Shown here: positions 1 through 13,222 of the stretch, piece after piece | Numbering within the stretch: the first letter of the stretch is position 1 | Layout of the letters: each line of letters opens with the position of its first letter | Origin: a virus | Taxonomy: Duplodnaviria; Heunggongvirae; Uroviricota; Caudoviricetes | Reading direction: 5' to 3' (one strand) | Length of the DNA stretch: 13,222 nucleotides | IMG/VR virus record: IMGVR_UViG_2654588181_000002 | Span: 1-13,222 of that record | Notes under the pieces: model-generated | What the model was told of the DNA's origin: nothing | The model's database searches: none | The model's input: only the letters and a program-made list of their open reading frames with translations | Program-made: the position numbers and the translations under genes

Positions 1-315
1 GATAATGGTTCATGCTACCGGGCTAATGAAACACGGCAGTTTGCCCGGATGTTGGGGCTTGAACCGAAGAACACGGCGGTGCGGAGTCCGGAGAGTAACG
101 GCATAGCAGAGAGCTTCGTGAAAACGATAAAGCGTGACTACATCAGTATCATGCCTAAACCAGACGGGTTAACGGCAGCAAAGAACCTTGCAGAGGCGTT
201 CGAGCATTATAACGAATGGCATCCGCATAGTGCACTGGGTTATCGCTCGCCACGGGAATATCTGCGGCAGCAGGCCAGTAATGGGTTAAGTGATAACAGG
301 TGTCTGGAAATATAG
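1..315 (+). CDS. insD: IS2 OrfB/InsD-type transposase, C-terminal fragment (5' end outside window)
   Basis: Translation from position 1: [104 protein letters not shown]. Recognised from memory as the IS2 InsD C-terminus. The ORF track lists only the internal Met at 49. Confidence 0.8.
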
Positions 316-326
316 GGGCAAATCCA
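1..326 (+). mobile_element. IS2-like (IS3 family) insertion sequence, 3' portion only; the outer terminal inverted repeat appears to be missing
   Basis: Frame 1 is open from position 1 to TAG 313-315 and encodes the C-terminus of an IS3-family DDE transposase (...[17 protein letters not shown]...). After GGGCAAATCCA (316-326) the sequence becomes AT-rich and unrelated to the IS2 terminal repeat as I recall it (no ...TTAAGTGATA...GGGGGCCAGTCTA). Confidence 0.7.
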
Positions 327-443
327 TTTAGAGCTATATTCTAGAGTATATGAGATACTATAAAGTTGAAGGAGCTATCATTAGAAAAACCATATGCTGC
401 TATAATTAGATGTCTCGCTTTTCATCCAATAACGAATTTTCTC

Positions 444-851
444 TTATAGATTGCTCTCTGGTTTTTTCGGCCACTCTGTATTTTTTATATCAACACGCAT
501 CAATAGTGCGCGATATTTTTTCCATGCCAGTAACAGTTTCGTTTCATCATCTGTTGCCATATCTAAATCAACCGCATCCTGAAGCGGTGCTATTACATTC
601 GTTGCCTCTGCTATCAGTGCAGATTTCTTTTCATTATTTATTAAGGCTAATTGTTCTGGTGTTGGAGAAGGACGGTCAACAATGACAGGGTGACCATTCT
701 CACCACAGGTAATCATTTTTGTTACACTCTGCGAATTAATCAGTGTTTTCCACTCTGATTCCGAGATTTCCACTGCATCATCAGGAATATTGGTGCCGTG
801 AAATTCAGTCGAATAAAATCCGTTTGTCGATGCAGAATAAAAATATGACAT
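444..851 (-). CDS. phage tail fibre assembly protein (Tfa family chaperone)
   Basis: C-terminal region ...IAPLQDAVDLDMATDDETKLLLAWKKYRALLMRVDIKNTEWPKKPE is the characteristic Tfa C-terminal domain. Start placed at the ATG at 849-851 (MSYFYSASTNGFY...) rather than ORF-track 947, because the upstream extension overlaps the tail-fibre gene in another frame. The upstream gene stops at 856-858. Confidence 0.8.
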   Translation of the reverse strand: MSYFYSASTNGFYSTEFHGTNIPDDAVEISESEWKTLINSQSVTKMITCGENGHPVIVDRPSPTPEQLALINNEKKSALIAEATNVIAPLQDAVDLDMATDDETKLLLAWKKYRALLMRVDIKNTEWPKKPESNL

Positions 852-855
852 TTCG

Positions 856-1506
856 TTAATATCCCATTGCAATGTAATACGCATCAGCAGATGAACCATA
901 TCCTGAACCGGGCGACACTGTAATATCAAATCCAGTGTTATGGACATTTGTCGCCGATACAGTCGGCTGCCCTGACGCGCCAGTAACGTTCAATGTAACT
1001 GTGACAGCAAGGACTCTTGAGAATGTCATCGGGAACCTCATCCCGTATGTTGAAGATACATTAGGGGAGCCATTCAACTGACCGCACTGTAAAATTAATC
1101 CAGACGGAAATTTTTGCGCAGCAGCCGTTGCGGTATTACTTGACGCGAACAGGCTCATATCAGGTATCTGATTCGCCCCTGTACCTACATTCCTTTTAGC
1201 CGCTTCTCCCAAACCAAGGTTTTCGAGAGCCGTTTGCACAGTGCCATCCGATTTGATATCGCCAAACGGATTCTTGCGGCTTAACAACAGCGCACGAAGC
1301 GCGGTAAGCAGCTGGTCATGCCGCCCCTTCTCCAGGCTGGCACCGGATGCCTCCACCACGCTGCAAAGCTCCTCCTGCAACATGTCAAAGTAGTCATCAT
1401 CCAGATCGGTGGCAGGTGTGCCGGTCTGGGGGTTACCACGGGTAAAACCGTTCTTACCCGCGCCGAACTTATCCTTCTGCGCGGTTTTGGTGTCTATACG
1501 ATGCAT
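856..1506 (-). CDS. phage tail fibre protein (short receptor-binding type, Stf-like)
   Basis: 216 aa. N-terminus [55 protein letters not shown]... and a Gly/Ser/Thr-rich C-terminus resemble short side-tail-fibre proteins of E. coli defective prophages (memory-based). It is immediately followed by a Tfa gene, the canonical stf-tfa arrangement. Confidence 0.6.
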
Positions 1507-1808
1507 GGATTACTCCGGATACCCCCTAGTGAATCTCCTGCACCATCAAGATGAAGGAGATAGATATTACTTGAGTTACCTTTTTCACCTTTCCGGGTGA
1601 CTTTTTTTACCAGCCCGGAATCACAAAGGGCCGCAATATGATTCATCACAGAACGTTTGCTAATCTCGCACTGGTCAGCAATATGCTGGTAGCTGGGCCA
1701 GCACTCACCCTGATCGCTGGCATTATCAGCCAGCTTGATCAGAACCAGTTTTCGCAATGGATTACCCACTCGAATTTTCATCGCTTTAACCATCAGCTCC
1801 ATACTCAT
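1494..1808 (-). CDS. small winged-helix/HTH DNA-binding protein (phage replication-initiator N-terminal-like, possibly truncated)
   Basis: 104 aa. Motif ...[47 protein letters not shown]... looks like the HTH N-terminal domain of phage replisome-organiser proteins. ATGA start/stop overlap with the upstream gene (1805-1808). The 3' end overlaps the tail-fibre start by 13 nt. Confidence 0.55.
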
Positions 1809-2041
1809 GCTGCACCTCCGAGATGCTTCATGTTTTTTCCGGAGCGAAAGGCTATAAGCGGCATACTGACGCGGTAATTACGGCCCAGCGGTTCACAAAT
1901 CACCTTCTGACATTCACGGTCAACCAGGCTGACACGTAGAACATGCCCTGCTGGCGTGGTGTACCACTGCCCAACTGTGGGTGTTGATATTTTTTTACGC
2001 TGAAATAAACGGTAAATGTTGAGGAGCAACGGATTAAGCAT
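1805..2041 (-). CDS. hypothetical small protein (78 aa)
   Basis: ORF whose start overlaps the upstream stop (ATG 2039-2041, upstream TAA 2034-2036) and whose stop overlaps the next start (ATGA at 1805-1808), suggesting translational coupling within one operon. No family recognised. Confidence 0.4.
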   Translation of the reverse strand: MLNPLLLNIYRLFQRKKISTPTVGQWYTTPAGHVLRVSLVDRECQKVICEPLGRNYRVSMPLIAFRSGKNMKHLGGAA

Positions 2042-2870
2042 GACGATGCCCTCCGCTGATATTCAGGAGACGGTGAATATGAAAATTAGCCTTATCCGCC
2101 AGACGAATACGTTCAGCTTGCAAGTTAAGAAGGGTTTCTACCAGAACCTGATGTGCCTGCGGATCCGAAAGAGTTACCTTGCGCAGAGCACGTAGTGCAG
2201 CTGTTACATAACTGAGTTTATGTAAGTCTTCATCATTCAGACGAGTGAGGGCTGGGACAGTAGCCATGATGGCAGCCTCCTTGATCGGTGAAATACTTCC
2301 ACCACCGGAAACGCCAATTTCGCTGGTGGTGAACTGAACGGGGTTGGCGTAACCGGTGATCAAGGAAACCGGCGCATCTTTCGATGCCCCCGCCCAGCCC
2401 ACCATAACTTTGATGTGAGCAAATGCGGACGATAAAAAAGACGCTGGCGCGTCATATATCGCCTTGATCAATTCCAGGACGCCAATCCCGGCACCCGCTT
2501 TATAAGGTGCCTGAACAGTGTAACGTCCCGGAATGGCAGAATCAATGTGCTGGTGGTCCTTCACACTCAACAAAATCACGCCTGAATTTCCACAAAGGGC
2601 TAAAGCACTCATGCGGGTAGTCTTTGCGAAGATAGATAACGCGCTGTGTTTCTGGCTCCCAACGAATAACATGAACATAAAGTCCTCTTCCGTCACGAAA
2701 CCAGCGGTTAAGTTCCTGCACAACTCGCCCCCCACAGTCAGGTAAAGTTCTCTGTGGTTACTTACAGCCAGGAGATTTGGTAATCTGCATTCATGCCGTA
2801 ACAACAGGTGTTCAGCGACGCTGACCACCAGCTGTTGCGACAAACGGTTATTTGCCGTTAAACTGTTCAT
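2034..2870 (-). CDS. hypothetical protein (278 aa) in the lambdoid replication-gene position; function unknown
   Basis: Long ORF with ATGA overlap to the upstream CII-like gene (2867-2870). No Walker A/P-loop, no N-terminal HTH and no other motif I can assign. Confidence 0.6.
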   Translation of the reverse strand: MNSLTANNRLSQQLVVSVAEHLLLRHECRLPNLLAVSNHRELYLTVGGELCRNLTAGFVTEEDFMFMLFVGSQKHSALSIFAKTTRMSALALCGNSGVILLSVKDHQHIDSAIPGRYTVQAPYKAGAGIGVLELIKAIYDAPASFLSSAFAHIKVMVGWAGASKDAPVSLITGYANPVQFTTSEIGVSGGGSISPIKEAAIMATVPALTRLNDEDLHKLSYVTAALRALRKVTLSDPQAHQVLVETLLNLQAERIRLADKANFHIHRLLNISGGHRHA

Positions 2871-3436
2871 GCGTTAGTTTCTCCACAACCAGAAGCAATC
2901 GACGCCACGACGCCCGGAGCTGCACACTCGCGGGCGTCATTACTTTCTGAAATGCAAAAGATTTTGTAGACCAGTGCTGCATGCTCCTGCAGCTTCGAAA
3001 TTGAGAGATACAGCTCGTCGTTAATTGCTGTCTTCTCATGCGGTTCCACTACACCGTCTTCGATTGCTGAACGAATCTGTTTTGAATAACTGCCGATCTG
3101 TTCAATGACTTCCAGCAGACGCTGGTTAATATCGGCGTTGTCCACATCCTCGACGTCAGGAAGAGACACAAAGACGCCATTTGCAGACTGCGCCACAGCG
3201 TCAGCAATGAAGTGAGTTCCACCAGCACGTTGCAAAATCATTGCCCATCCCAGCGGGAAAATCTGATCGCCATCGGCACGAAGGCGGTTAAATAATGCGT
3301 TCTCTGTTACATCCAGCCAGTCAGCTGCTTCAGCGTAACCACCCGGCAACTTTGCGATAGTTTTTCTGACAGCTTTCACGTACCACTCAGGCTGTTTTTC
3401 TACTTTCCAGTGATGCTTACCCACGGTTAGCCTCAT
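2867..3436 (-). CDS. phage CII-like regulatory protein (YmfL/YdaT-like)
   Basis: 189 aa, immediately downstream of the Cro-like gene on the same strand, in the cII position of a lambdoid immunity region. Resembles the e14 YmfL / Rac YdaT group (memory-based). No obvious Shine-Dalgarno upstream of the ATG at 3434-3436. Confidence 0.6.
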   Translation of the reverse strand: MRLTVGKHHWKVEKQPEWYVKAVRKTIAKLPGGYAEAADWLDVTENALFNRLRADGDQIFPLGWAMILQRAGGTHFIADAVAQSANGVFVSLPDVEDVDNADINQRLLEVIEQIGSYSKQIRSAIEDGVVEPHEKTAINDELYLSISKLQEHAALVYKIFCISESNDARECAAPGVVASIASGCGETNA

Positions 3437-3467
3437 CGTTCTGTGGTTAAAAATTGAAAGTGTTCTG

Positions 3468-3668
3468 CTAATCTTTCGGATAGATATCCGGTCTTAAGTC
3501 AGATTTCGTAATTGCACCTGACGTGCATTGCTCAAGTTTTTTAGCCAGCACAAAACTGGCTTTTTTATAGCCATTGAAAACCAGCCGTAAGTAGCCAGGT
3601 GTTGAGCCAACTTTTCCGGCCAACTCGCCCTGCTGTTCTTTGGTTAAAGAGTCCCAATACGCTTTCAT
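3468..3668 (-). CDS. Cro-like HTH regulator (YdaS/CroE-like)
   Basis: 66-aa product MKAYWDSLTKEQQGELAGKVGSTPGYLRLVFNGYKKASFVLAKKLEQCTSGAITKSDLRPDIYPKD, divergent from the CI-like gene. GGAGG lies 10 nt upstream of the chosen ATG (3666-3668). The longer ORF-track version (to 3971) would overlap the repressor gene and is rejected. Confidence 0.7.
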   Translation of the reverse strand: MKAYWDSLTKEQQGELAGKVGSTPGYLRLVFNGYKKASFVLAKKLEQCTSGAITKSDLRPDIYPKD

Positions 3669-3670
3669 AC

Positions 3671-3758
3671 AATATGTACCTCCGGTGTACATATTACATG
3701 ATTGAAATGAACCTTCAAGATACTTGTACCTTAACGGTACAAGAGTTTTAATTTCGTT
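3671..3758. promoter_or_regulatory. divergent immunity-switch control region: two inverted-repeat operators plus candidate pR (minus) and pRM (plus) promoters
   Basis: Operator 1 is AATATGTAC-N7-GTACATATT (3671-3695, perfect 9-bp arms). Operator 2 is CTTGTACC-TTAAC-GGTACAAG (3723-3743, perfect 8-bp arms). Candidate pR on minus strand: -35 TTGAAG (3719..3714), 17-bp spacer, -10 TAATAT (3696..3691), overlapping operator 1. Candidate pRM on plus strand: -35 TTGTAC (3724-3729), 17-bp spacer, -10 TTTAAT (3747-3752), ending about 7 nt before the repressor ATG. Confidence 0.6.
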
Positions 3759-4433
3759 ATGAAAACAATCCATGACATCCGGCGGTCTAACGCCAGAAAA
3801 CTGAGAGATGGTGTTGGCGGGAATTCTTCCTTTGCCACTATGATTGATCGCGAGCCAACCCAGACCAGCAGGTTTATGGGAGATGGTGCTACTAAAAATA
3901 TCGGTGACAGCATGGCACGACACATCGAAAAATGTTTCGACCTGCCTGTCGGATGGCTCGATCAAGAACACCAGACAACGAACATCACAAAAAAACCTGA
4001 TGTTTCAATCACTAATAAACAAATCACATTAGTCCCTGTCATATCATGGGTACAGGCCGGAGCATGGAAAGAAGTTGGATATTCTGAGGTTGATTTGAGC
4101 ACAGCAGAAACGTATCCCTGCCCTGTACCCTGTGGGGAAATGACTTATATCTTGCGGGTGATAGGTGATTCAATGATTGATGAGTACCGCCCGGGAGACA
4201 TGATTTTTGTCGATCCTGAAGTACCTGCCTGCCACGGTGACGACGTTATTGCATTGATGCACGATACAGGTGAAACCACCTTCAAAAGGTTGATAGAAGA
4301 TGGGACACAGCGTTATCTCAAAGCGTTAAACCCAAACTGGCCTGAGCCTTACATTAAGATCAACGGTAATTGCTCTATAATTGGTACAGTGATTTTCTCA
4401 GGAAAACCAAGAAGATACAAAATCAAAGCCTAA
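3759..4433 (+). CDS. CI-like prophage repressor (HTH + LexA-like S24 autopeptidase domain; CohE-like)
   Basis: 224 aa with an N-terminal HTH region and a C-terminal S24-type domain (VIGDSM... and FKRL Ser/Lys dyad context). Divergent from the Cro-like gene, and no Shine-Dalgarno before the ATG, consistent with a leaderless pRM transcript. Confidence 0.9.
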   Translation: MKTIHDIRRSNARKLRDGVGGNSSFATMIDREPTQTSRFMGDGATKNIGDSMARHIEKCFDLPVGWLDQEHQTTNITKKPDVSITNKQITLVPVISWVQAGAWKEVGYSEVDLSTAETYPCPVPCGEMTYILRVIGDSMIDEYRPGDMIFVDPEVPACHGDDVIALMHDTGETTFKRLIEDGTQRYLKALNPNWPEPYIKINGNCSIIGTVIFSGKPRRYKIKA

Positions 4434-4444
4434 TCAATGTTTAT

Positions 4445-4468
4445 GAACCTGCTTCGGCAGGTTTTTTT
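4445..4468 (+). terminator. intrinsic terminator downstream of the repressor gene
   Basis: ACCTGC-TTCG-GCAGGT hairpin (4447-4462, UUCG tetraloop) followed by a run of seven T (4462-4468), 12 nt after the repressor stop. Confidence 0.75.
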
Positions 4469-4472
4469 ATAC

Positions 4473-4505
4473 TTGACAATGTACCTTTGAGATACATAAT
4501 GTACC
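4473..4505 (+). promoter_or_regulatory. candidate early-left promoter (pL-like) with repressor half-sites
   Basis: -35 TTGACA (4473-4478), 16-bp spacer, -10 CATAAT (4495-4500). The ATGTACC motif occurs twice (4480-4486 and 4499-5505 region, second copy at 4499-4505), sharing the GTAC core of the operators at 3671-3743. Confidence 0.6.
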
Positions 4506-4582
4506 CAAGCGAAACAACGAACAGGCAGGACGCCCACGAAGTAGCCGCCTGGGGCATATGAAGTCCAGGATGATTCGTTAGC

Positions 4583-4608
4583 AACAAAAAAGCGCCTACA
4601 GGACGCTT
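4583..4608 (-). terminator. candidate intrinsic terminator on the minus strand, downstream of the 4845-5279 gene
   Basis: Minus strand reads AAGCGTC-CTGTA-GGCGCTT followed by TTTTGTTGC (plus coordinates 4590-4608 for the hairpin, A-run 4586-4591). It lies about 240 nt beyond the minus-strand gene's stop and inside the 5' leader of the plus-strand 68-aa gene. Confidence 0.45.
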
Positions 4609-4666
4609 AGCTCTTTAACAATCTGGTCCCCATCAACAAGTAACTGATAACTTGAGGAGATGTGAA

Positions 4667-4873
4667 ATGCACAAAACAGAACCCAAAATCGTCGCGCCTG
4701 GCTACACAGATGAGGAAATTTATGAGTGGATGACAAAGAAGCTGGCAGCTATAAACCAGCTTCGTGAAGTGCTGTCTTATCGACAGGAAACAATAGACTC
4801 CTTAAAAAAACTGGATCAGGAAATCACGGTTTTATCACAGGATGTTACTTTAGATATTGTGCAGACAAATTAG
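4667..4873 (+). CDS. hypothetical small acidic, predicted coiled-coil protein (68 aa), first gene after pL
   Basis: ATG at 4667 preceded by GAGGAG (4655-4660); the ORF-track 4652 start would be a TTG. Product MHKTEPKIVAPGYTDEEIYEWMTKKLAAINQLREVLSYRQETIDSLKKLDQEITVLSQDVTLDIVQTN. Not N-like (not Arg-rich). The 3' end overlaps the convergent minus-strand gene by 29 nt. Confidence 0.5.
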   Translation: MHKTEPKIVAPGYTDEEIYEWMTKKLAAINQLREVLSYRQETIDSLKKLDQEITVLSQDVTLDIVQTN

Positions 4874-5279
4874 GATCCCATTCATTTTCGTCAAAATCAT
4901 CAAAGTGATGAATTTGTGATCTCCAGTCTCGATAATCTAAAAATTTCTGGGCGGTTACGCTTATTTTATCAAGTGTGAGTTCATCCTGAATTGAAAGAAG
5001 AAGTTCATCAAATTTCATCTCATTAATCTGTTTTGGCATCCAGTGATGCTTCATCAGAATAAGGTGAACCAGAGCCTTTTTCCCATTCAACTGATTATAG
5101 GGAGTGCCGAATTTCTTCCGGTGCTCATGTAAGACAAGGTCCAAAAGAGTAAGTAATGTTGCCCTTGATTCAACTTTGCTTATTTCGACTGATGACACTA
5201 CCCCACTGATTTCAATGCCCCGATACTTTCCAACATTTTCACAGTGGGATTTGTACAGCGTATAGATATTACCGGACAT
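4845..5279 (-). CDS. hypothetical protein (144 aa), AT-rich antisense 'moron' gene; function unknown
   Basis: Clean 144-codon ORF opposite to all neighbouring early-left genes, visibly more AT-rich than its flanks, with an AGGA-like RBS upstream of the ATG (5277-5279) and its own candidate terminator. No family recognised. Confidence 0.6.
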   Translation of the reverse strand: MSGNIYTLYKSHCENVGKYRGIEISGVVSSVEISKVESRATLLTLLDLVLHEHRKKFGTPYNQLNGKKALVHLILMKHHWMPKQINEMKFDELLLSIQDELTLDKISVTAQKFLDYRDWRSQIHHFDDFDENEWDPNLSAQYLK

Positions 5280-5294
5280 TTCTTTTCCTTTTGC

Positions 5295-5343
5295 GTTGTT
5301 GGGGATAACCAGATTAACCGAATCCTTGTTGTTGGGGAATAAC
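5295..5343. repeat. two direct copies of GTTGTTGGGGA(A)TAAC, 33 bp apart, just upstream of the 4845-5279 gene
   Basis: 5295-5309 GTTGTTGGGGATAAC and 5328-5343 GTTGTTGGGGAATAAC. Position fits a regulator binding site or promoter element for the minus-strand gene. Confidence 0.4.
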
Positions 5344-5605
5344 TAGGTCCACCTCGCCTGATGTGGCTAAAAGCAGGCACATAACAGCTAAGTATTTTCA
5401 ACCAGAGAGAATCCTTAGCGTTGTGGTGAATGCGGCTCAGCGCACGCGGGTTAAGGTTGAGGCTGACAGTCGACCTTCTGTGGATACCCACCCGCCTGGT
5501 GTGCAACCTTCGCCAGGCACCGGGAGGCACCCGGCACCACAACTTTATGCTGTGTGTAGTCTTGGCGGTACCAGCTTGTACCCTTGCTTCCGGCTGGTAC
5601 CGTCC

Positions 5606-5704
5606 TTTTTACAAAACAGAGAAGAGCATCACCGGACGACGGGCTCATAACCCAATCCATCCGGGCGGCAGTCACCGCAGGTGTTCTTCTCTGTTTTGTG
5701 GAGA
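5606..5704. other. long imperfect palindrome / stem-loop within a GC-rich non-coding block
   Basis: Perfect 14-bp inverted repeat ACAAAACAGAGAAG (5611-5624) / CTTCTCTGTTTTGT (5686-5699), extendable with wobbles to about 20 bp, enclosing a ~49-nt GC-rich loop. No flanking U-run on either strand, so not a classical terminator. Confidence 0.4.
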
Positions 5705-5747
5705 AACTAACCGACCTTGCAGGGTCGATATGATGAGGAGCAGCAAA

Positions 5748-6110
5748 ATGGCTAGCGAACGCAGTACTGATGTGCAGGCATTTATCGGGGAGCTGGACGG
5801 CGGCGTATTTGAAACCAAAATCGGCGCAGTTCTCAGTGAAGTCGCTTCCGGTGTGATGAACACGAAAACCAAAGGTAAGGTCTCGCTCAACCTAGAAATC
5901 GAACCGTTTGATGAGAACCGAGTGAAAATCAAACACAAACTCTCATATGTTCGCCCGACTAACCGCGGGAAAATTTCCGAAGAAGACACCACCGAAACGC
6001 CGATGTATGTCAATCGCGGTGGTCGCCTGACTATTCTGCAGGAAGACCAGGGACAGTTGCTGACTCTTGCCGGTGAACCTGACGGAAAACTCCGCGCAGC
6101 AGGTCGTTAA
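5748..6110 (+). CDS. YfdP-like prophage protein (120 aa), function unknown
   Basis: Start at ATG 5748 (MASERSTDVQAFIGELDGG...) preceded by GAGGAG (5735-5740). The ORF-track extension back to 5430 translates to Arg/Cys/His-rich sequence typical of GC-rich non-coding DNA and is rejected. First gene of a block recalled as the CPS-53 yfdPQRST-like cluster. Confidence 0.65.
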   Translation: MASERSTDVQAFIGELDGGVFETKIGAVLSEVASGVMNTKTKGKVSLNLEIEPFDENRVKIKHKLSYVRPTNRGKISEEDTTETPMYVNRGGRLTILQEDQGQLLTLAGEPDGKLRAAGR

Positions 6111-6175
6111 TATCGTTTTTAATTAACTGATTATTTATCTCATCACTGAATATCTTTATATAGTGAGGACTTATT

Positions 6176-7000
6176 ATGTCTCAGAACTTAGACGCAACCG
6201 CAATTAATCAAATCCATGCCCTTATTTCTGCTCAGGGTGTTAATGAAATTATCAGTAAGATTGGTGCCGATGCTGTGGCATTGCCTGAGAATTTCCGCAT
6301 TCATGATCTGGAAAAATTTAATTTAAATCGCTTCCGTTTCCGTGGTGCGCTTTCCACTGCCAGCATCGATGATTTTACCCGTTATTCTAAAGATCTTGCA
6401 GATGAAGGCACCCGCTGCTTTATCGATGCTGATAATATGCGTGCCGTCAGTGTGCTTAACCTAGGTACTATTGATGAACCAGGTCACGCAGATAACACCG
6501 CCACACTCAAACTGAAAAAGACAGCACCGTTCTCTGCTCTGTTGTCTGTTAACGGCGAGCGTAACTCCCAGAAGTCACTAGCAGAATGGATTGAAGACTG
6601 GGCCGACTATCTTGTGGGCTTTGATGCTAATGGTGACGCTATTCAGGCAACAAAAGCGGCTGCGGCTGTCCGTAAAATCACGATTGAAGCAAACCAGACC
6701 GCTGATTTTGAAGATAATGACTTCAGCGGCAAACGCTCCCTGATGGAGTCTGTCGAAGCGAAGACCAAAGACATTATGCCAGTGGCATTTGAATTTAAAT
6801 GCGTTCCGTTTGAAGGTCTGAAAGAACGTCCGTTTAAATTACGCCTCAGTATTATCACTGGCGATCGTCCTGTACTGGTTCTGCGCATTATTCAGCTGGA
6901 GGCGGTGCAGGAAGAAATGGCTAACGAATTTCGTGATCTGCTTGTTGAGAAATTCAAGGACAGCAAAGTAGAAACCTTTATTGGTACTTTCACCGCCTGA
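6176..7000 (+). CDS. YfdQ-like prophage protein (DUF2303-type), 274 aa
   Basis: ATG 6176 with GAGGA (6165-6169) upstream. Product [30 protein letters not shown]... recalled as YfdQ-family. Confidence 0.75.
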
Positions 7001-7012
7001 TTTCATTACTGC

Positions 7013-7034
7013 AAATGCCCCTGCGGGGGCATTT
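7013..7034 (+). other. perfect 9-bp hairpin between the yfdQ-like and yfdR-like genes
   Basis: AAATGCCCC-TGCG-GGGGCATTT (stem 7013-7021 / 7026-7034). The only T residues are inside the stem, so it is a weak terminator at best; possibly an mRNA stability or processing element. Confidence 0.35.
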
Positions 7035-7127
7035 ATGGAAACGTAATTTACTCAATAATCGCCGGATGGTGAGGGATTCTTTTTACCAGAATTCAGCGCG
7101 GTGCAGCGCATATACGTGGAGAACAAA

Positions 7128-7664
7128 ATGTCATTTATTAAAACTTTTTCCGGGAAGCATTTTTATTATGACAGGATAAATAAAGACGACATCGATATTA
7201 ACGATATCGCGGTTTCCCTTTCAAATATCTGTCGCTTTGCCGGTCATCTTTCGCACTTCTACAGCGTCGCCCAACATGCGGTTCTTTGCAGCCAGCTGGT
7301 GCCGCAGGAATTTGCTTTTGAAGCGTTAATGCATGATGCAACAGAAGCGTATTGCCAGGACATTCCCGCACCACTGAAACGCCTTCTTCCTGACTATAAA
7401 CAAATGGAAGAAAAAATAGACGCCGTAATCCGTGAGAAATACGGGTTACCCCCAGTTATGAGTACGCCCGTGAAATATGCCGATCTCATCATGCTGGCAA
7501 CCGAACGCCGCGATCTCGGGCTTGATGATGGCTCTTTCTGGCCTGTACTGGAAGGTATCCCGGCAACAGAGATGTTCAACGTGATTCCACTGGCACCGGG
7601 CCATGCCTACGGGATGTTTATGGAACGCTTTAACGAGTTATCGGAGTTACGCAAATGCGCATGA
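7128..7664 (+). CDS. HD-domain phosphohydrolase (YfdR-like)
   Basis: 178 aa. H...HD metal-binding signature (...AGHLSHFYSVAQHAV... and ...ALMHDATEAY...). ATG 7128 preceded by GGAG (7117-7120); the ORF-track GTG at 7101 is rejected. Stop overlaps the next gene's start. Confidence 0.85.
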   Translation: MSFIKTFSGKHFYYDRINKDDIDINDIAVSLSNICRFAGHLSHFYSVAQHAVLCSQLVPQEFAFEALMHDATEAYCQDIPAPLKRLLPDYKQMEEKIDAVIREKYGLPPVMSTPVKYADLIMLATERRDLGLDDGSFWPVLEGIPATEMFNVIPLAPGHAYGMFMERFNELSELRKCA

Positions 7665-8017
7665 ATGTTTTCGAAATGGAAGGGTTTCTTCGTGGGAGAT
7701 GTGTACCGCGAGATCTGAAAGTAAATGAAACAGATGCTGAATACCTGGTGCGTAAATTCGATGCGCTTGAAGCTAAATGTGCAGCACAGGAAAACAAAGT
7801 AATACCAGTGTCAACTGAACTGCCACCAGCAAATGAAAGTGTTTTGTTATTCGATGCTAACGGAGAAGGCTGGCTAATTGGCTGGCGTTCTCTCTGGTAC
7901 ACCTGGGGACAAAAAGAAACCGGAGAATGGCAGTGGACATTTCAGGTCGGGGACCTTGAAAACGTCAATATCACTCACTGGGCAGTAATGCCAAAAGCAC
8001 CGGAGGCTGGAGCATAA
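7655..8017 (+). CDS. DUF551-like phage protein (YfdS-like)
   Basis: 120 aa, Trp-rich C-terminal half (...GWLIGWRSLWYTWGQKETGEWQW...) typical of DUF551. Start overlaps the previous stop (7655-7664); the stop overlaps the next start (8017). Confidence 0.7.
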   Translation: MRMNVFEMEGFLRGRCVPRDLKVNETDAEYLVRKFDALEAKCAAQENKVIPVSTELPPANESVLLFDANGEGWLIGWRSLWYTWGQKETGEWQWTFQVGDLENVNITHWAVMPKAPEAGA

Positions 8018-8322
8018 TGACCACTTTTACCGACAAAGAACTGATTAAAGAAATTAAAGAGCGTATCAGCAGCCTTGACGTGCGAGACGATATTGAGCGC
8101 CGTGCTTATGAAATCGCACTCCTATATCTGGAAGTAGAACCAGATGAACGCGAAGCTTATGAATTATTCATGGAAAAGCGTTTCGGTGACTTAGTAGATC
8201 GTCGGAGAGCAAAAAACGGCAATAACGAATACATGGCATGGGATATGACTCTCGGTTGGATCGTCTGGCAGCAACGAGCTGGTATCCATTTTTCAACAAT
8301 GTCACAGCAAGAGGTGAAATAA
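8017..8322 (+). CDS. hypothetical phage protein (YfdT-like), 101 aa
   Basis: Translationally coupled at both ends (ATG within ATAATG at 8017; TAATG at 8320-8324). Assigned as the last gene of the yfdQRST-like cluster by position and size only. Confidence 0.55.
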   Translation: MTTFTDKELIKEIKERISSLDVRDDIERRAYEIALLYLEVEPDEREAYELFMEKRFGDLVDRRRAKNGNNEYMAWDMTLGWIVWQQRAGIHFSTMSQQEVK

Positions 8323-8672
8323 TGGAGCCATACAGCCTCACACTCGATGAGGCCTGTCATTTTCTCAAGATATCCAGACCGACTGCCATTAACTGGATAC
8401 GCACAGGGCGTCTTCAGGCAACACGCAAAGATCCCACTAAGAATAAATCTCCTTACCTCACAACACGACAAGCCTGCATTGCGGCTCTTCAGTCTCCGCT
8501 GCATACTGTCCAGGTGAGCGCGGGTGATGGCATAACAGAGGAAAGAAAATGTCACTCTTCCGCAGAGGTGAAATATGGTACGCCAGTTTCACATTGCCGA
8601 ACGGTAAAAGATTTAAACAGTCTCTTGGAACAAAGGACAAAAGGCAGGCGACAGAACTCCATGACAAGCTAA
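8322..8672 (+). CDS. AlpA/Xis-type excisionase / DNA-binding regulator
   Basis: N-terminus [38 protein letters not shown]... is the AlpA-family HTH. ATG 8322 with GAGG (8311-8314) upstream. The ORF runs 116 codons and its last 124 nt overlap the integrase start in another frame, so the true C-terminus is uncertain. Confidence 0.7.
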
Positions 8673-9712
8673 AGGCTGAAGCATGGCGGGTCAGCAAACT
8701 TGGTGAAATACCTGATATAACGTTCGAGGAAGCGTGTGTCAGGTGGCTTGAAGAGAAAGCACATAAAAAATCACTGGACGATGACAAAAGCCGGATCGGA
8801 TTCTGGCTTCAACATTTCGCAGGAATGCAACTAAGAGACATTACTGAATCAAAAATTTATTCAGCAATGCAGAAAATGACGAACCGGCGTCATGAGGAAA
8901 ACTGGAAACTCAGGGCAGAAGCATGCAGAAAAAAAGGGAAACCTGTTCCAGAATACACGCCAAAACCAGCGTCCGTTGCAACGAAGGCTACGCATCTTTC
9001 ATTTATAAAGGCCCTACTAAGAGCCGCAGAGCGTGAATGGAAAATGCTGGATAAGGCACCAATTATTAAAGTGCCTCAACCAAAGAATAAACGGATCCGC
9101 TGGCTGGAGCCCCATGAAGCACAAAGGCTGATTGATGAATGTCCGGAGCCATTAAAGTCTGTTGTTGAATTTGCACTGGCAACAGGCTTAAGACGCTCGA
9201 ACATCATCAACCTTGAATGGCAACAAATAGATATGCAGCGCCGGGTGGCATGGATAAACCCGGAAGAGAGTAAATCAAACCGCGCAATTGGCGTTGCGCT
9301 GAATGATACTGCATGTCGCGTATTGAAAAAACAAATCGGGAATCATCACCGTTGGGTATTTGTGTACAAGGAAAGCTGTACCAAACCAGACGGAACGAAA
9401 GCGCCAACAGTAAGGAAGATGCGGTATGACGCAAACACAGCCTGGAAAGCGGCGCTGAGACGGGCTGGTATTGATGATTTCAGATTTCACGACTTGAGAC
9501 ACACCTGGGCAAGTTGGCTGGTTCAAGCCGGAGTCCCGTTGTCAGTGTTACAGGAAATGGGAGGCTGGGAGTCTATCGAAATGGTTCGTCGATATGCTCA
9601 CCTTGCACCTAATCACCTTACCGAACACGCACGGCAAATAGACTCGATCCTGAACCCATCGGTCCCAAATTTGTCCCAGTCAAAAAATAAGGAAGGTACT
9701 AATGATGTGTAA
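8549..9712 (+). CDS. tyrosine recombinase, phage integrase (e14 IntE-like)
   Basis: 387 aa. N-terminus [34 protein letters not shown] and C-terminal catalytic region ...[42 protein letters not shown] (R..H..R..Y). Stops 14 nt before the 3' end of the tRNA. Confidence 0.95.
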
Positions 9713-9725
9713 CTTATTGATTTTA

Positions 9726-9801
9726 ATGGTGCCGATAATAGGAGTCGAACCTACGACCTTCGCATTACGAATGCGCTGCTCTACCAACTGAGCTATATCG
9801 G
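9726..9801 (-). tRNA. thrW: tRNA-Thr (anticodon CGU)
   Basis: Minus strand reads GCCGATATAGCTCAGTTGGTAGAGCAGCGCATTCGTAATGCGAAGGTCGTAGGTTCGACTCCTATTATCGGCACCA: 7-bp acceptor stem, anticodon loop UUCGUAA, T-loop GGTTCGA, encoded CCA. Sits between proA and the integrase, as expected for a thrW-integrated island. Confidence 0.97.
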
Positions 9802-9854
9802 CCCTGAAAGGACATGTTCACGAACGTGAATCACGGTGGACAAGGTTAAAACTA

Positions 9855-9916: not shown

Positions 9917-11170
9917 TTACGCACGAATGGTGTAATCACCAATGCCGATCCACTTGTAAGTGGTCAGTGCTTCCAGCCCCATTGGGCCACGCGCGTGGAG
10001 TTTTTGTGTGCTTACCGCCACTTCCGCACCCAGACCAAACTGGCCGCCGTCGGTAAAACGCGTAGAGGCGTTAACGTAAACAGCGGACGAATCCACTTCG
10101 TTAACAAAACGCTGGGCGTTGCGCATATCGCGGGTCAGGATCGCATCGGAGTGTTGTGTGCCGTGTTCACGAATATGGGCGATGGCATCGTCAAGATCGC
10201 TGACGATTTTGACGTTCAAATCTAATGACAGAAACTCATCGTCATACTCTTCGGCTTTAACAGCAACCACCTTCGCAGGGCCTGCCTGCAACTGCGCCAG
10301 TGCAGCTGCATCTGCGTGTAATGTCACGCCGCTTTCCGCCATTTGTTTGCTTAATGCGGGCAGGAAGCTATCGGCGATGTTTTTATTCACCAGCAACGTT
10401 TCAACCGTATTACATGTGCTCGGACGCTGAGTTTTCGCGTTGACGATCACTTTTAATGCTTCAGCGATCTCTACACTTTCATCAACGTAAATATGGCATA
10501 CGCCTATACCACCTGTGATCACCGGGATTGTCGACTGTTCACGGCACAGTTTATGCAAACCAGCGCCACCACGCGGGATCAGCATGTCGATGTATTTATC
10601 CATACGCAGCATTTCACTGACCAGCGCACGGTCAGGATTATCAATCGCCTGCACGGCACCCGCCGGTAAGCCGCAGGATTTCAGGGCGTCCTGAATCACC
10701 GCCACCGTTGCAGCGTTAGTGCGACACGTTTCTTTGCCACCGCGCAGGATCACCGCATTACCGGTTTTCAGGCACAGCGAAGCGACATCAACCGTCACGT
10801 TCGGGCGCGCTTCATAAATCACGCCAATAACCCCCAGCGGTACGCGACGACGCTCAAGACGCAGGCCGCTGTCCAGTACGCTGCCATCGATTACCTGCCC
10901 CACCGGATCGGCGAGGTTACACACCTGGCGCACATCATCGGCAATGCCTTTCAGCCGTGCGGGCGTCAGTGCCAGACGGTCAAGCATCGCTTCGCCAAGG
11001 CCATTGGCACGCGCGTCAGCAACATCCTGGGCGTTAGCGTTGAGGATGATTTCGCTTTGTGCTTCCAGTTCATCGGCGATTTTTTCCAGCACGCGATTTT
11101 TTTCGCGGCTGGAGAGTTGCGCTAATTTATACGAGGCTTGCTTCGCGGCAATGCCCATTTGTTCCAGCAT
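9917..11170 (-). CDS. proA: gamma-glutamyl phosphate reductase
   Basis: 417-aa product [58 protein letters not shown]..., recognised as E. coli ProA. GGAG sits 7 nt upstream of the ATG, 11 nt after the proB stop. Confidence 0.98.
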
Positions 11171-12572: not shown

Positions 12573-12627
12573 ATGAAAAAGAGCACTCTGGCATTAGTGG
12601 TGATGGGCATTGTGGCATCTGCATCTG
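12573..12627 (+). pseudogene. phoE: phoE 5' fragment (signal-peptide codons 1-18), interrupted by IS1
   Basis: ATG 12573 encodes MKKSTLALVVMGIVASAS, the PhoE porin signal peptide, then runs directly into the IS1 left end at 12628. Divergent from proB as in E. coli. Confidence 0.85.
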
Positions 12628-12682
12628 GGTGATGCTGCCAACTTACTGATTTAGTGTATGATGGTGTTTTTGAGGTGCTCCA

Positions 12683-12958
12683 GTGGCTTCTGTTTCTATC
12701 AGCTGTCCCTCCTGTTCAGCTACTGACGGGGTGGTGCGTAACGGCAAAAGCACCGCCGGACATCAGCGCTATCTCTGCTCTCACTGCCGTAAAACATGGC
12801 AACTGCAGTTCACTTACACCGCTTCTCAACCCGGTACGCACCAGAAAATCATTGATATGGCCATGAATGGCGTTGGATGCCGGGCAACCGCACGCATTAT
12901 GGGCGTTAGCCTCAACACGATTTTACGCCACTTAAAAAACTCAGGCCGCAGTCGGTAA
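12683..12958 (+). CDS. insA: IS1 InsA (transposition inhibitor / N-terminal part of the InsAB' transposase)
   Basis: 91-aa product [91 protein letters not shown] with a zinc-finger-like CxxC...CxxC N-terminus. Confidence 0.95.
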
Positions 12959-13222
12959 CCTCGCGCATACAGCCGGGCAGTGACGTCATCGTCTGCGCGG
13001 AAATGGACGAACAGTGGGGATACGTCGGGGCTAAATCGCGCCAGCGCTGGCTGTTTTACGCGTATGACAGGCTCCGGAAGACGGTTGTTGCGCACGTATT
13101 CGGTGAACGCACTATGGCGACGCTGGGGCGTCTTATGAGCCTGCTGTCACCCTTTGACGTGGTGATATGGATGACGGATGGCTGGCCGCTGTATGAATCC
13201 CGCCTGAAGGGAAAGCTGCACG
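12934..13222 (+). CDS. insB: IS1 insB reading frame (partial; expressed as InsAB' by -1 frameshift at the A6C slip site)
   Basis: A6C motif TTAAAAAAC at 12932-12940. The -1 frame after it reads [96 protein letters not shown] to the window end. In this copy the insB frame has a TAG at 12907-12909, upstream of the slip site. Confidence 0.8.

What the first reader, a model, noticed from the sequence alone, without database searches (positions are those of the whole stretch)
327..9725. Mosaic e14-like / CPS-53-like prophage integrated at thrW with the integrase next to the tRNA
The integrase, the AlpA-type xis and the immunity trio (224-aa CI-like, 66-aa Cro-like, 189-aa CII/YmfL-like) resemble the e14 element as I remember it, whereas the early-left block resembles the yfdPQRST cluster of CPS-53. 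The integrase stop is 14 nt from the 3' end of tRNA-Thr(CGU), so the att core should be the tRNA 3' end. e14 itself integrates in icd, so this integrase would have a different site specificity despite the similar N-terminus. The second att copy is not in the window.
Basis: partly seen in the sequence, partly recalled or inferred. Interest (0 to 1): 0.4.

Follow-up and report, generated by a model that had tools for sequence, protein, structure and literature searches.

The report
Decayed SfI/SfV-type prophage at thrW
This is an ordinary, already described kind of element: a decayed O-antigen-modifying (serotype-converting) Shigella/E. coli prophage of the SfI/SfV group. It sits in the threonine tRNA gene thrW, has lost about 25 kb of replication, lysis and virion genes, and carries an IS2 insertion.

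Summary
The sequence features are real. thrW (tRNA-Thr CGU) lies at 9727-9802 (-), and a 387-aa integrase ends 14 nt from its 3' end.

- The cI/cro/CII-like trio is 97-100% identical to e14 YmfK/T/L.
- The early-left block is 94-99% identical to CPS-53 YfdPQRST.
- The att core is the tRNA 3' part (46 bp, 9727-9772).
- The second att copy lies outside the window.

It was wrong on the integrase and excisionase. Neither resembles e14 IntE/XisE (pairwise E = 0.18). The integrase is 100% identical to SfIV Int, 99% to SfI, 98% to SfV and 90% to P22 Int, so its thrW specificity is already known.

The element is a remnant. About 25 kb is deleted, fusing the replication gene to the tail-fibre gene at 1520/1521.

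The window is a whole draft contig. Another contig of the same assembly carries gtrI-gtrB-gtrA and a second perfect 46-bp core. The two contigs join across one IS2 with a 5-bp target duplication, giving an island of about 13.9 kb.

Verdict: already known and of low interest.

Side finding: the 278-aa "Ash" ORF looks like a mis-called ORF covering an isrK/C4 antisense-RNA switch.

The parts
1..326 (+). Right end of IS2 (C-terminus of OrfB at 49-315). The contig starts inside the IS.
   Evidence: Window 1-233 is 97.9% identical to K-12 IS2A and extrapolates to the IS2A end at 326. Plasmid records annotate the matching DNA as an IS3-family transposase.
327..331 (.). 5-bp IS2 target-site duplication, TTTAG
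   Evidence: The same TTTAG precedes the IS2 left end on contig FNIS01000022.1 (L030 11638-11642). The uninterrupted sequence is present in sister contig L004.
444..947 (-). Tail-fibre assembly protein (called as 444-899, 151 aa)
   Evidence: Pfam Caudo_TAP. 100% aa identity to SfI and 92% to SfV.
856..1506 (-). Short tail-fibre protein, complete at 216 aa
   Evidence: Pfam Gp53-like_C. 99.5% aa identity to SfI gp23 and 93% to SfV orf21.
1520..1521 (.). Internal deletion junction. It joins SfV coordinate 16656 (just upstream of the tail-fibre gene) to 28593 (inside replication gene orf39). About 25.1 kb is missing relative to SfV.
   Evidence: blastn of the window against SfV. There is a 2-bp microhomology (TA). 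The endpoint lies in a run of TAGTGAAT..TGCAC repeats in orf39.
1494..1808 (-). Truncated replication gene: the N-terminal ~96-100 aa of SfV orf39 fused to 4-8 junction-encoded residues, 104 aa in all
   Evidence: 96% identity over 100 aa to SfV orf39. Pfam HTH_36 / DnaD_N.
1805..2041 (-). orf38 homologue (78 aa, function unknown)
   Evidence: 91% identity to SfV orf38. dN/dS 0.15-0.30.
2034..2267 (-). 77-aa ORF, probably the real coding part of the 278-aa 'Ash' ORF (2034-2870). A Shine-Dalgarno sequence AAGGAGG lies 8 nt upstream of its ATG.
   Evidence: dN/dS is 0.08-0.34 for this ORF, against about 1 for the upstream parts of the long ORF.
2278..2286 (-). Downstream target complementary to the C4 loop, overlapping the Shine-Dalgarno sequence of the 77-aa ORF
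   Evidence: GATCAAGGA in the window; GTTATCGGA in the second allele, changing together with the C4 loop.
2322..2409 (-). C4-type antisense RNA gene
   Evidence: Rfam RF01695, 82.3 bits against a gathering score of 45, full length. All 27 pairs are kept in all 3 sequence variants.
2434..2510 (-). isrK-type RNA with an intrinsic terminator. Its linker (2462-2470) is complementary to the C4 loop.
   Evidence: Rfam RF01394, 64.2 bits against a gathering score of 50. Terminator at 2453-2440. The linker co-varies with the C4 loop.
2542..2721 (-). DUF4222 small ORF (59 aa), in a different frame from the 278-aa ORF
   Evidence: Pfam DUF4222. dN/dS 0-0.24. RefSeq annotates this ORF in the E. coli relative.
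2867..3436 (-). CII-like regulator (YmfL homologue; 185 aa from 3424 or 189 aa from 3436)
   Evidence: Pfam Phage_CP76. 97.4% identity to e14 YmfL and 89.9% to SfV orf36.
3468..3668 (-). Cro-like repressor (YmfT homologue, 66 aa)
   Evidence: 98.5% identity to e14 YmfT and 100% to SfV Cro. Gene call.
3674..3743 (.). Divergent promoter/operator region with two TGTAC-N9-GTACA palindromes (3674-3692 and 3723-3743)
   Evidence: Read directly from the sequence. The SfV record annotates a putative operator region at the same place.
3759..4433 (+). CI repressor with a LexA-like S24 autocleavage domain (224 aa)
   Evidence: Pfam Peptidase_S24. 100% identity to e14 YmfK and 99.6% to SfV CI.
4580..5348 (.). 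Segment absent from SfV and e14. It holds a 68-aa ORF (4667-4873, +) and a 144-aa ECs1072-family ORF (4845-5279, -). It looks like a moron (a non-essential accessory gene insert) of unknown function.
   Evidence: Gap in the blastn matches to SfV and e14. phrog_1744 and phrog_5286, both of unknown function. No PADLOC hit.
5748..8322 (+). Early-left block: yfdP (5748-6110), yfdQ (6176-7000), yfdR 5'-deoxynucleotidase (7128-7664), yfdS (7655-8017), yfdT (8017-8322)
   Evidence: 94-99% aa identity to CPS-53 YfdP-T and 98-100% to SfV orf32-28. 96.4% DNA identity to CPS-53 over 2647 bp.
8322..8672 (+). Excisionase (116 aa from 8322; the longest ORF starts at 8238)
   Evidence: Pfam HTH_17. 98.6% identity to SfV Xis, 94% to SfI and 85.7% to P22 Xis. 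No hit to e14 XisE.
8549..9712 (+). Tyrosine integrase, 387 aa, intact
   Evidence: The Pfam Phage_integrase domain is matched over its full length. 100% identity to SfIV, 99.2% to SfI, 98.5% to SfV and 89.9% to P22 Int. No similarity to e14 IntE.
9727..9772 (.). 46-bp att core at the int-proximal junction, equal to positions 31-76 of thrW
   Evidence: Exact match to the published SfI/SfII/SfV/SfX/P22 core. Phage homology ends exactly at 9772. Perfect second copies lie on L030 in the same assembly and on L009 in the E. coli relative.
9727..9802 (-). thrW, tRNA-Thr(CGU), intact
   Evidence: ARAGORN. Rfam tRNA, 71.8 bits.

Best explanation
Window 327-9772 is the int-proximal part of a cryptic prophage of the SfI/SfV group. 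These are the serotype-converting, thrW-integrating myoviruses of Shigella flexneri and E. coli; e14 and CPS-53 of K-12 are decayed mosaic relatives.

How it got there (inferred): a P22-type tyrosine integrase recombined the 46-bp attP core with the identical 3' part of thrW. This left an intact tRNA gene next to int, and a second core copy beyond gtrA at the far end.

How it decayed (shown): about 25 kb was then lost by an illegitimate deletion. The loss covers most of the replication gene, the Nin region (the lambda-type block of small genes between the replication and late genes), Q, lysis, cos, terminase, head and tail genes. The deletion fused codon ~96-100 of the replication gene to the DNA just upstream of the short tail-fibre gene. 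An IS2 later inserted between the tail-fibre assembly gene and gtrI.

What remains (shown): int, xis, the yfdPQRST early-left genes, the cI/cro/cII-like switch with its operators, an isrK/C4 RNA module, tail fibre and TAP. On the neighbouring contig are gtrI-gtrB-gtrA and the second core.

What it can still do (inferred):
- It cannot make virions.
- It probably still confers repressor immunity against SfV/SfIV/e14-type phages.
- It could still glucosylate a suitable O antigen through GtrABI.
- It could be excised by Int and Xis between the two perfect cores after the SOS DNA-damage response cleaves CI.
For: - Identity: 97-99% DNA identity to SfV, SfIV, SfII and SfI over the corresponding segments.
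- Integrase: 98.5-100% identical to SfV, SfI and SfIV Int and 89.9% to P22 Int.
- att core: the published 46-bp core is present exactly at 9727-9772, and phage homology stops there.
- Site specificity: the literature states that SfI, SfII, SfIV, SfV and SfX integrate in thrW next to proA, with gtrABC, attP, int and xis in this order (PMC3636060; PMC3851460). P22 also uses thrW (PMC2629481).
- Deletion junction: mapped against SfV and shared by a 100%-identical sister contig.
- Far end: in the same assembly, contig FNIS01000022.1 carries paoD, the 46-bp core, gtrA, gtrB, gtrI and the IS2 left end. It shows the same TTTAG duplication as window 327-331.
- GtrI: the sister-contig GtrI is 99.6% identical to SfI GtrI, and that exact protein sequence is also encoded on contig FNIS01000022.1 of this assembly.
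- Intact relative: an E. coli prophage of about 39 kb occupies the same site between two perfect cores.
- Precedent: cryptic SfI prophages carrying gtrI at the proA locus are described in PMC5596473.
Against: - Nothing in the data contradicts the identification.
- Contiguity of the two contigs across IS2 is inferred from matching IS2 ends, matching orientation, the 5-bp duplication and the uninterrupted sister contig. It was not read directly.
- Activity of Int, Xis, CI and GtrI is inferred only from intact ORFs and near-identity to characterised proteins.
- The late end is SfI-like (99% identity, against 93% to SfV). The early region is SfV/SfIV-like, whereas phage SfI itself has a lambda-like early region. 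The parent phage therefore is not any single sequenced phage.
Confidence: 0.95

Rival explanations
1. One reading: an e14-type integrase and AlpA-type xis whose site specificity has diverged from icd to thrW despite a similar N-terminus.
For: Only the immunity genes, and part of the tail-fibre gene, are e14-like.
Against: - BLASTP of Int against e14 IntE gives E = 0.18, and tblastn finds no hit to IntE or XisE.
- IntE has a lambda-type Arm-DNA-bind_1 domain and XisE is Pfam Exc. The window's Xis is HTH_17.
- The integrase is 90-100% identical to integrases with known thrW specificity.
Confidence: 0.01
2. A complete, inducible temperate phage whose remaining genes simply lie outside the window.
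For: The window is a draft contig that ends in IS copies. int, xis and the immunity genes are intact.
Against: - The replication gene is fused directly to the tail-fibre gene inside the window.
- The other side of the IS2 runs gtrI, gtrB, gtrA, core, then the chromosomal gene paoD. There is no room for head, tail, lysis or terminase genes.
Confidence: 0.01
3. The remnant did not come from one mosaic phage. It arose from two prophages in tandem at thrW: an SfI-type one supplying tail fibre, TAP and gtrI, and an SfV/SfIV-type one supplying int through the replication gene. One deletion then removed everything between them, including the internal att site.
For: - The late end is closest to SfI and the early region to SfV/SfIV, while phage SfI has a lambda-like early region.
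- Complete genomes carrying this TAP and gtrI show tandem int fragments and IS-scrambled remnants at the same locus.
Against: - Phages of this group are freely mosaic, so a single parent with this combination is equally plausible.
- Int here is 99.2% identical to SfI Int as well.
- The data cannot separate the two histories.
Confidence: 0.3
4. A satellite-like island that keeps int, xis and immunity and is mobilised by a helper SfV-like phage.
For: Its small size (about 13.9 kb), intact int and xis, perfect att repeats, and retained tail-fibre and TAP genes.
Against: - The cos/terminase region is within the deleted segment.
- There are no capsid-remodelling or packaging-redirecting genes.
- The deletion variant was found on only three contigs, from this assembly and two read sets. 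Relatives show many different decay patterns, which is typical of random decay.
Confidence: 0.03

Closest known systems
Shigella flexneri serotype-converting phages SfV, SfIV, SfII and SfI, and the cryptic SfI prophage carrying gtrI at proA-thrW (SHI-O island)
   Same: - The same integration site and 46-bp core.
- Int and Xis are 98-100% identical.
- The early-left block, cI/cro and orf36-39 are as in SfV and SfIV.
- Tail fibre, TAP and GtrI are as in SfI.
- gtrABC lies next to att at the end opposite int.
   Different: - About 25 kb of replication, late-regulation, lysis and morphogenesis genes are deleted.
- An IS2 lies between TAP and gtrI.
- A 769-bp segment with an ECs1072-family gene replaces 523 bp of SfV.
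- It combines an SfI-type late end with an SfV-type early region.
- The source labels the host Shigella sonnei, not S. flexneri.
Salmonella phage P22 Int/Xis and its thrW attachment site
   Same: 89.9% Int identity and 85.7% Xis identity. The 46-bp core in thrW is identical.
   Different: The rest of the element is unrelated to P22. The DNA identity of about 80% is confined to int-xis.
E. coli K-12 cryptic prophage e14
   Same: - cI, cro and the cII-like gene are 97-100% identical, with 98% DNA identity over 1.7 kb.
- Part of the tail-fibre gene is 96-97% identical.
- e14 too is a remnant whose replication gene is fused to a late gene (ymfN).
   Different: - e14 sits in icd and uses a lambda-type Int and Xis with no similarity to those here.
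- It has no yfdPQRST block.
- It has no gtr genes.
E. coli K-12 cryptic prophage CPS-53 (KpLE1)
   Same: yfdP-Q-R-S-T are 94-99% identical, with 96.4% DNA identity over 2.6 kb. CPS-53 also carries a gtrABC-type cluster (yfdGHI) and tail-fibre fragments.
   Different: It integrates at argW with an unrelated IntS and the recombination directionality factor TorI. It has a different gene order and no cI/cro module.
P1/P7 immI (c4 antisense RNA, icd, ant) and the Gifsy-1 isrK locus
   Same: - Rfam C4 and isrK hits above the gathering scores.
- The C4 loop is complementary to one upstream site and to one downstream site that covers the Shine-Dalgarno sequence of a small ORF.
- Loop and targets co-vary between two alleles (PMC4825925).
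   Different: What follows is a 77-aa ORF, orf38 and the replication gene, not an antirepressor. Function was not tested.

Membership tests
SfI/SfV-group serotype-converting prophage (thrW-integrating) | Integration in thrW next to proA through the 46-bp core ATTCGTAATGCGAAGGTCGTAGGTTCGACTCCTATTATCGGCACCA | tested here: met
   Exact core at 9727-9772 inside thrW, with proA at 9917-11170. The core sequence is as given in PMC3636060.
SfI/SfV-group serotype-converting prophage (thrW-integrating) | Int and Xis of the SfI/SfII/SfIV/SfV type, next to att | tested here: met
   Int is 100% identical to SfIV, 99.2% to SfI and 98.5% to SfV. Xis is 98.6% identical to SfV.
SfI/SfV-group serotype-converting prophage (thrW-integrating) | gtrA-gtrB-gtr(type) cluster next to the att site at the end opposite int | tested here: met
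   Not in the window. It is on contig FNIS01000022.1 of the same assembly, in the order core, gtrA, gtrB, gtrI, IS2, joined to the window by matching IS2 ends and the TTTAG duplication.
SfI/SfV-group serotype-converting prophage (thrW-integrating) | Complete virion module (HK97-type head, Mu-type contractile tail, cos and terminase) together with replication and lysis genes | tested here: not met
   SfV coordinates 28594-37074 and 1-16655 are absent. Only the tail-fibre and TAP genes remain. This is a remnant of such a phage, not a functional member.
SfI/SfV-group serotype-converting prophage (thrW-integrating) | Type I glucosylation of the O antigen | not testable with these tools
   The GtrI ORF is intact and 99.6% identical to SfI GtrI. 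No phenotype is available.
P22-type thrW-specific tyrosine integrase | Full-length similarity to P22 Int, a complete catalytic domain, and an identical core site | tested here: met
   89.9% identity over 387 aa. Pfam Phage_integrase matched over positions 1-171 of 172. Identical core.
e14 element | Integration in icd by IntE and XisE | tested here: not met
   The site is thrW. There is no similarity to IntE or XisE. The Pfam architectures differ.
e14 element | YmfK/YmfT/YmfL immunity module | tested here: met
   100 / 98.5 / 97.4% aa identity. 98% DNA identity over window 2857-4582.
CPS-53 (KpLE1) | Integration at argW by IntS, with TorI as the directionality factor | tested here: not met
   No hit to IntS or TorI. 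Only 46 aa of the xis-upstream ORF match ypdJ.
CPS-53 (KpLE1) | yfdPQRST early block | tested here: met
   94-99% aa identity.
C4 antisense RNA (Rfam RF01695) / P1 immI-type control | The C4 fold, with a loop complementary to target sites on the same transcript, one of them at a ribosome-binding site | tested here: met
   82.3 bits against a gathering score of 45. All 27 pairs are kept. Targets lie at 2462-2470 and 2278-2286, and both co-vary with the loop in the second allele.
C4 antisense RNA (Rfam RF01695) / P1 immI-type control | Control of a downstream antirepressor (icd-ant) | tested here: not met
   Downstream lie a 77-aa ORF with no Pfam match, orf38 and the replication gene. It may work like immI, but it is not the icd-ant operon.

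The most novel reading that the evidence does not exclude
The 278-aa 'Ash family' / 'transcriptional regulator' ORF is SfV orf37. It is matched by Pfam Phage_ASH and by several PHROG families. This reading says it is not a protein. Instead it is a P1-immI / P4-CI-like RNA switch made of an isrK-type leader, a C4-type antisense RNA, and a target at the Shine-Dalgarno sequence of a 77-aa ORF. The switch would gate the orf38-replication operon and exist in at least two exchangeable specificity alleles. In the remnant it would still be expressed, giving a second, RNA-based layer of exclusion against incoming SfV-like phages.
Probability: 0.5. Interest if true: 0.35.

Novelty: already known. Interest (0 to 1): 0.12.

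Why it matters
The finding matters little in itself. thrW-integrated SfI/SfV-type prophages and their decayed gtr-carrying remnants are textbook features of Shigella and E. coli genomes, and the thrW specificity of this integrase is established.

Three useful by-products came out of the check:
- The annotation is corrected. The element is an SfI/SfV remnant with a P22-type integrase, not an e14-type integrase.
- The island is reconstructed in full, about 13.9 kb across two draft contigs.
- The widely propagated 'Ash family protein' annotation in these phages probably covers an antisense-RNA control module. This bears on how the immunity and replication control of this phage group are annotated.

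Tried and rejected
- My own recollection that e14 IntE resembles P22 Int was wrong.
- The J. Bacteriol. papers on strain Y53 (PMC103612) and on SfV (PMC134923), and the BMC paper on e14, are not held. What they say about orf37 and about e14/KpLE1 similarity could not be checked.
- The cluster representative P0001 led only to other genomes.
- A first exact look-up failed because I trimmed the start codon instead of the stop codon on the minus strand. The corrected one search gave P0076, which led to the second contig. The same trimming slip slightly shortened some queries, without effect on the results.
- PADLOC found no defence-system match for any early gene or for the ECs1072-family gene. 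PHROGs gave only 'unknown function' for most of them.
- No partial att copy or other meaningful repeat was found inside the window.
- The promoter scan found no more sites than expected by chance.
- The ymfL control for the codon-position test could not be aligned collinearly in the IMG/VR loci.

Full report
**Observation**

The window holds one tRNA gene, tRNA-Thr(CGT), at 9727-9802 on the minus strand. A 387-aa ORF at 8549-9712 (+) ends 14 nt from the tRNA 3' end. To the right lie proA (9917-11170, -) and proB (-). Next comes the start of phoE, cut after 55 nt by an IS1 that begins at 12628. To the left, bases 1-326 are the right end of IS2. The window is the whole of draft contig FNIS01000058.1 of assembly GCA_900103855.1. 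Its proteins are labelled Shigella sonnei by the source.

**What it is**

Megablast against phage records gives SfV, SfIV, SfII and SfI as the closest phages. Against SfV the window falls into three blocks:
- 401-1521 matches SfV 17776-16656 (tail-fibre assembly and short tail-fibre genes, 93%).
- 1520-4579 matches SfV 28593-25540 (96%).
- 5349-9772 matches SfV 25016-20592 (98.8%).

Homology to SfV and SfI stops exactly at 9772. In the SfI record that position is the outer end of the annotated 46-bp attP core. The core published for SfI, SfII, SfV, SfX and P22 (PMC3636060) occurs once in the window, at 9727-9772. This corresponds to positions 31-76 of thrW.

**Integrase and excisionase**

The integrase is 100% identical to SfIV Int, 99.2% to SfI, 98.5% to SfV and 89.9% to P22 Int. 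Xis (116 aa from 8322; Pfam HTH_17) is 98.6% identical to SfV Xis and 85.7% to P22 Xis. Neither protein resembles e14 IntE or XisE:
- tblastn finds nothing.
- Pairwise BLASTP gives E = 0.18.
- IntE carries a lambda-type arm-binding domain, and XisE is a lambda-type 'Exc' protein.

Use of thrW by this integrase group is documented (PMC3636060, PMC3851460 and PMC2629481). There is therefore no altered specificity to explain.

**The e14 and CPS-53 resemblances are real**

CI, Cro and the CII-like protein are 100, 98.5 and 97.4% identical to e14 YmfK, YmfT and YmfL. YfdP-T are 94-99% identical to those of CPS-53, and the DNA identities are 98% and 96.4%. SfV and SfIV carry the same modules. The better description is that e14, CPS-53 and this element are all mosaics drawn from the SfV-like gene pool.

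**It is a remnant**

At 1520/1521, SfV coordinate 16656 is joined to 28593. This removes about 25.1 kb: most of replication gene orf39, the regulatory and Nin-type genes, Q, the lysis genes, cos, terminase, and the head, tail and baseplate genes. The junction shows a 2-bp microhomology. It lies within repeated TAGTGAAT..TGCAC motifs of orf39, which look like origin iterons; that reading is inference. The result is a 104-aa fusion ORF at 1494-1808.

**The other end of the element**

That fusion protein occurs on only two further contigs. One is Logan contig L004. It is 100% identical to window 325-8358 and continues TAP, gtrI, gtrB, gtrA. It ends with 30 bp of the att core. Its 506-aa protein is 99.6% identical to SfI GtrI.

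An exact look-up of that protein led to contig FNIS01000022.1 of the same assembly as the window. It reads ecpD/E ... paoABCD, a lysR fragment, a perfect 46-bp core, gtrA, gtrB, gtrI, 121 bp, then the left end of IS2. The flank there ends in TTTAG, and the window's flank begins with TTTAG. The uninterrupted sister contig has a single TTTAG at this point. One IS2 therefore inserted between gtrI and TAP.

From core to core the island measures 3171 + 1331 + 9446 = 13,948 bp.

An E. coli relative (UPEC-245U) has an intact prophage of about 39 kb at the same site between two perfect cores. It has this same early region but an e14-like pin/tail-fibre end instead of gtr. Other complete genomes show still more scrambled, IS-rich and partly tandem remnants. 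Cryptic SfI prophages carrying gtrI at proA are described in the literature (PMC5596473).

**Mechanism**

Shown:
- The identity and completeness of int, xis, cI and cro.
- The operator palindromes.
- The gtr genes and both att cores.
- The absence of all genes needed for replication, lysis and virion assembly.

Inferred from the families:
- CI represses the divergent early promoters and gives immunity to homoimmune phages.
- RecA-stimulated autocleavage (the S24 domain) would derepress the leftward operon that ends in xis-int.
- Int and Xis could then excise the 13.9-kb island, restoring thrW and removing gtrI.
- GtrA, GtrB and GtrI could glucosylate a suitable O antigen.
- No phage can be produced.

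**Origin**

The late end is SfI-like, and the early region is SfV/SfIV-like. Either a single mosaic parent suffered an internal deletion, or a deletion fused two tandem prophages. The data do not decide between these.

**Side finding**

Rfam places a C4 antisense RNA (2322-2409, 82 bits) and an isrK RNA (2434-2510, 64 bits, with its terminator) on the minus strand. Both lie inside the 278-aa ORF 2034-2870 (SfV orf37, Pfam Phage_ASH). The Pfam match (aa 116-209) lies directly on the two RNAs.

In 80 IMG/VR relatives the long ORF stays open, but it shows no third-position bias and a dN/dS of 0.8-1.65. For comparison, the values are:
- 0-0.3 for orf38 and the replication gene.
- 0-0.24 for the overlapping DUF4222 ORF.
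- 0.08-0.34 for its last 77 codons.

Two alleles differ mainly in the C4 loop (CCTTGATCA against CCGATAACG). The complementary sequences change with it at both sites. One is upstream in the isrK linker (2462-2470). The other is downstream (2278-2286), where it overlaps an AAGGAGG Shine-Dalgarno sequence 8 nt before the ATG at 2267.

This is the layout of P1 c4-icd (recalled, not checked here) and is related to the Gifsy-1 isrK locus (PMC4825925). It suggests RNA control of the 77-aa ORF, orf38 and the replication operon. It also suggests that the 'Ash' ORF is largely an annotation artefact. The SfV GenBank record already labels orf37 'immunity region', so part of this may be known. I could not read that paper.

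**Verdict**

The element is a known kind of cryptic prophage, so interest is low.

Noticed in passing
window 2034-2870 (-), with RNAs at 2322-2409 and 2434-2510: The 278-aa 'Ash family' ORF contains Rfam C4 and isrK RNA genes. Its dN/dS is about 1, while a 77-aa ORF at its 3' end and a DUF4222 ORF in another frame show purifying selection. The C4 loop and two complementary targets, one at the Shine-Dalgarno sequence of the 77-aa ORF, co-vary between two alleles in 80 related loci.
   Followed up: partly
window 12573-12627 / 12628-13222: phoE is cut after 55 nt (codon 19) by an IS1 that is 98.8% identical to K-12 IS1A. Related complete genomes instead have a different IS1 variant in the proB-phoE intergenic region.
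   Followed up: partly
L030 (contig FNIS01000022.1) 8719-11521, and source names: The assembly is labelled Shigella sonnei, yet it carries an intact gtrA-gtrB-gtrI cluster typical of S. flexneri serotype 1. From my own knowledge, the S. sonnei O antigen is not the known substrate of GtrI. The cluster may therefore be a silent relic, or the strain label may be wrong.
   Followed up: no
window 1521-1560; SfV (L002) 28553-28633: The deletion endpoint lies in a run of three TAGTGAAT..TGCAC repeats inside the replication gene, which are possibly origin iterons. e14 likewise has its replication gene fused to a late gene (ymfN/oweE-aaaE). This hints that the region is deletion-prone.
   Followed up: no
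window 4580-5348: A 769-bp segment downstream of cI replaces 523 bp of SfV. It carries a 68-aa ORF and a 144-aa ECs1072-family ORF on the opposite strand, flanked by terminator-like hairpins. It looks like a moron of unknown function, with no PADLOC match.
   Followed up: partly
L020 and L025 (complete chromosomes CP026871.1 and LR213452.1), about 7300-19600: These genomes carry the same TAP and gtrI but with several int fragments, IS copies and yfdS/yfdT/xis pieces in series. This indicates tandem, IS-scrambled thrW prophage remnants.
   Followed up: no
window 5430-6110: A 226-aa ORF results from an in-frame upstream extension of yfdP (the real start is probably 5748). RefSeq marks the upstream part as a frameshifted hypothetical gene in the E. 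coli relative. That upstream part is 90% identical in DNA to the e14 ymfH region.
   Followed up: no
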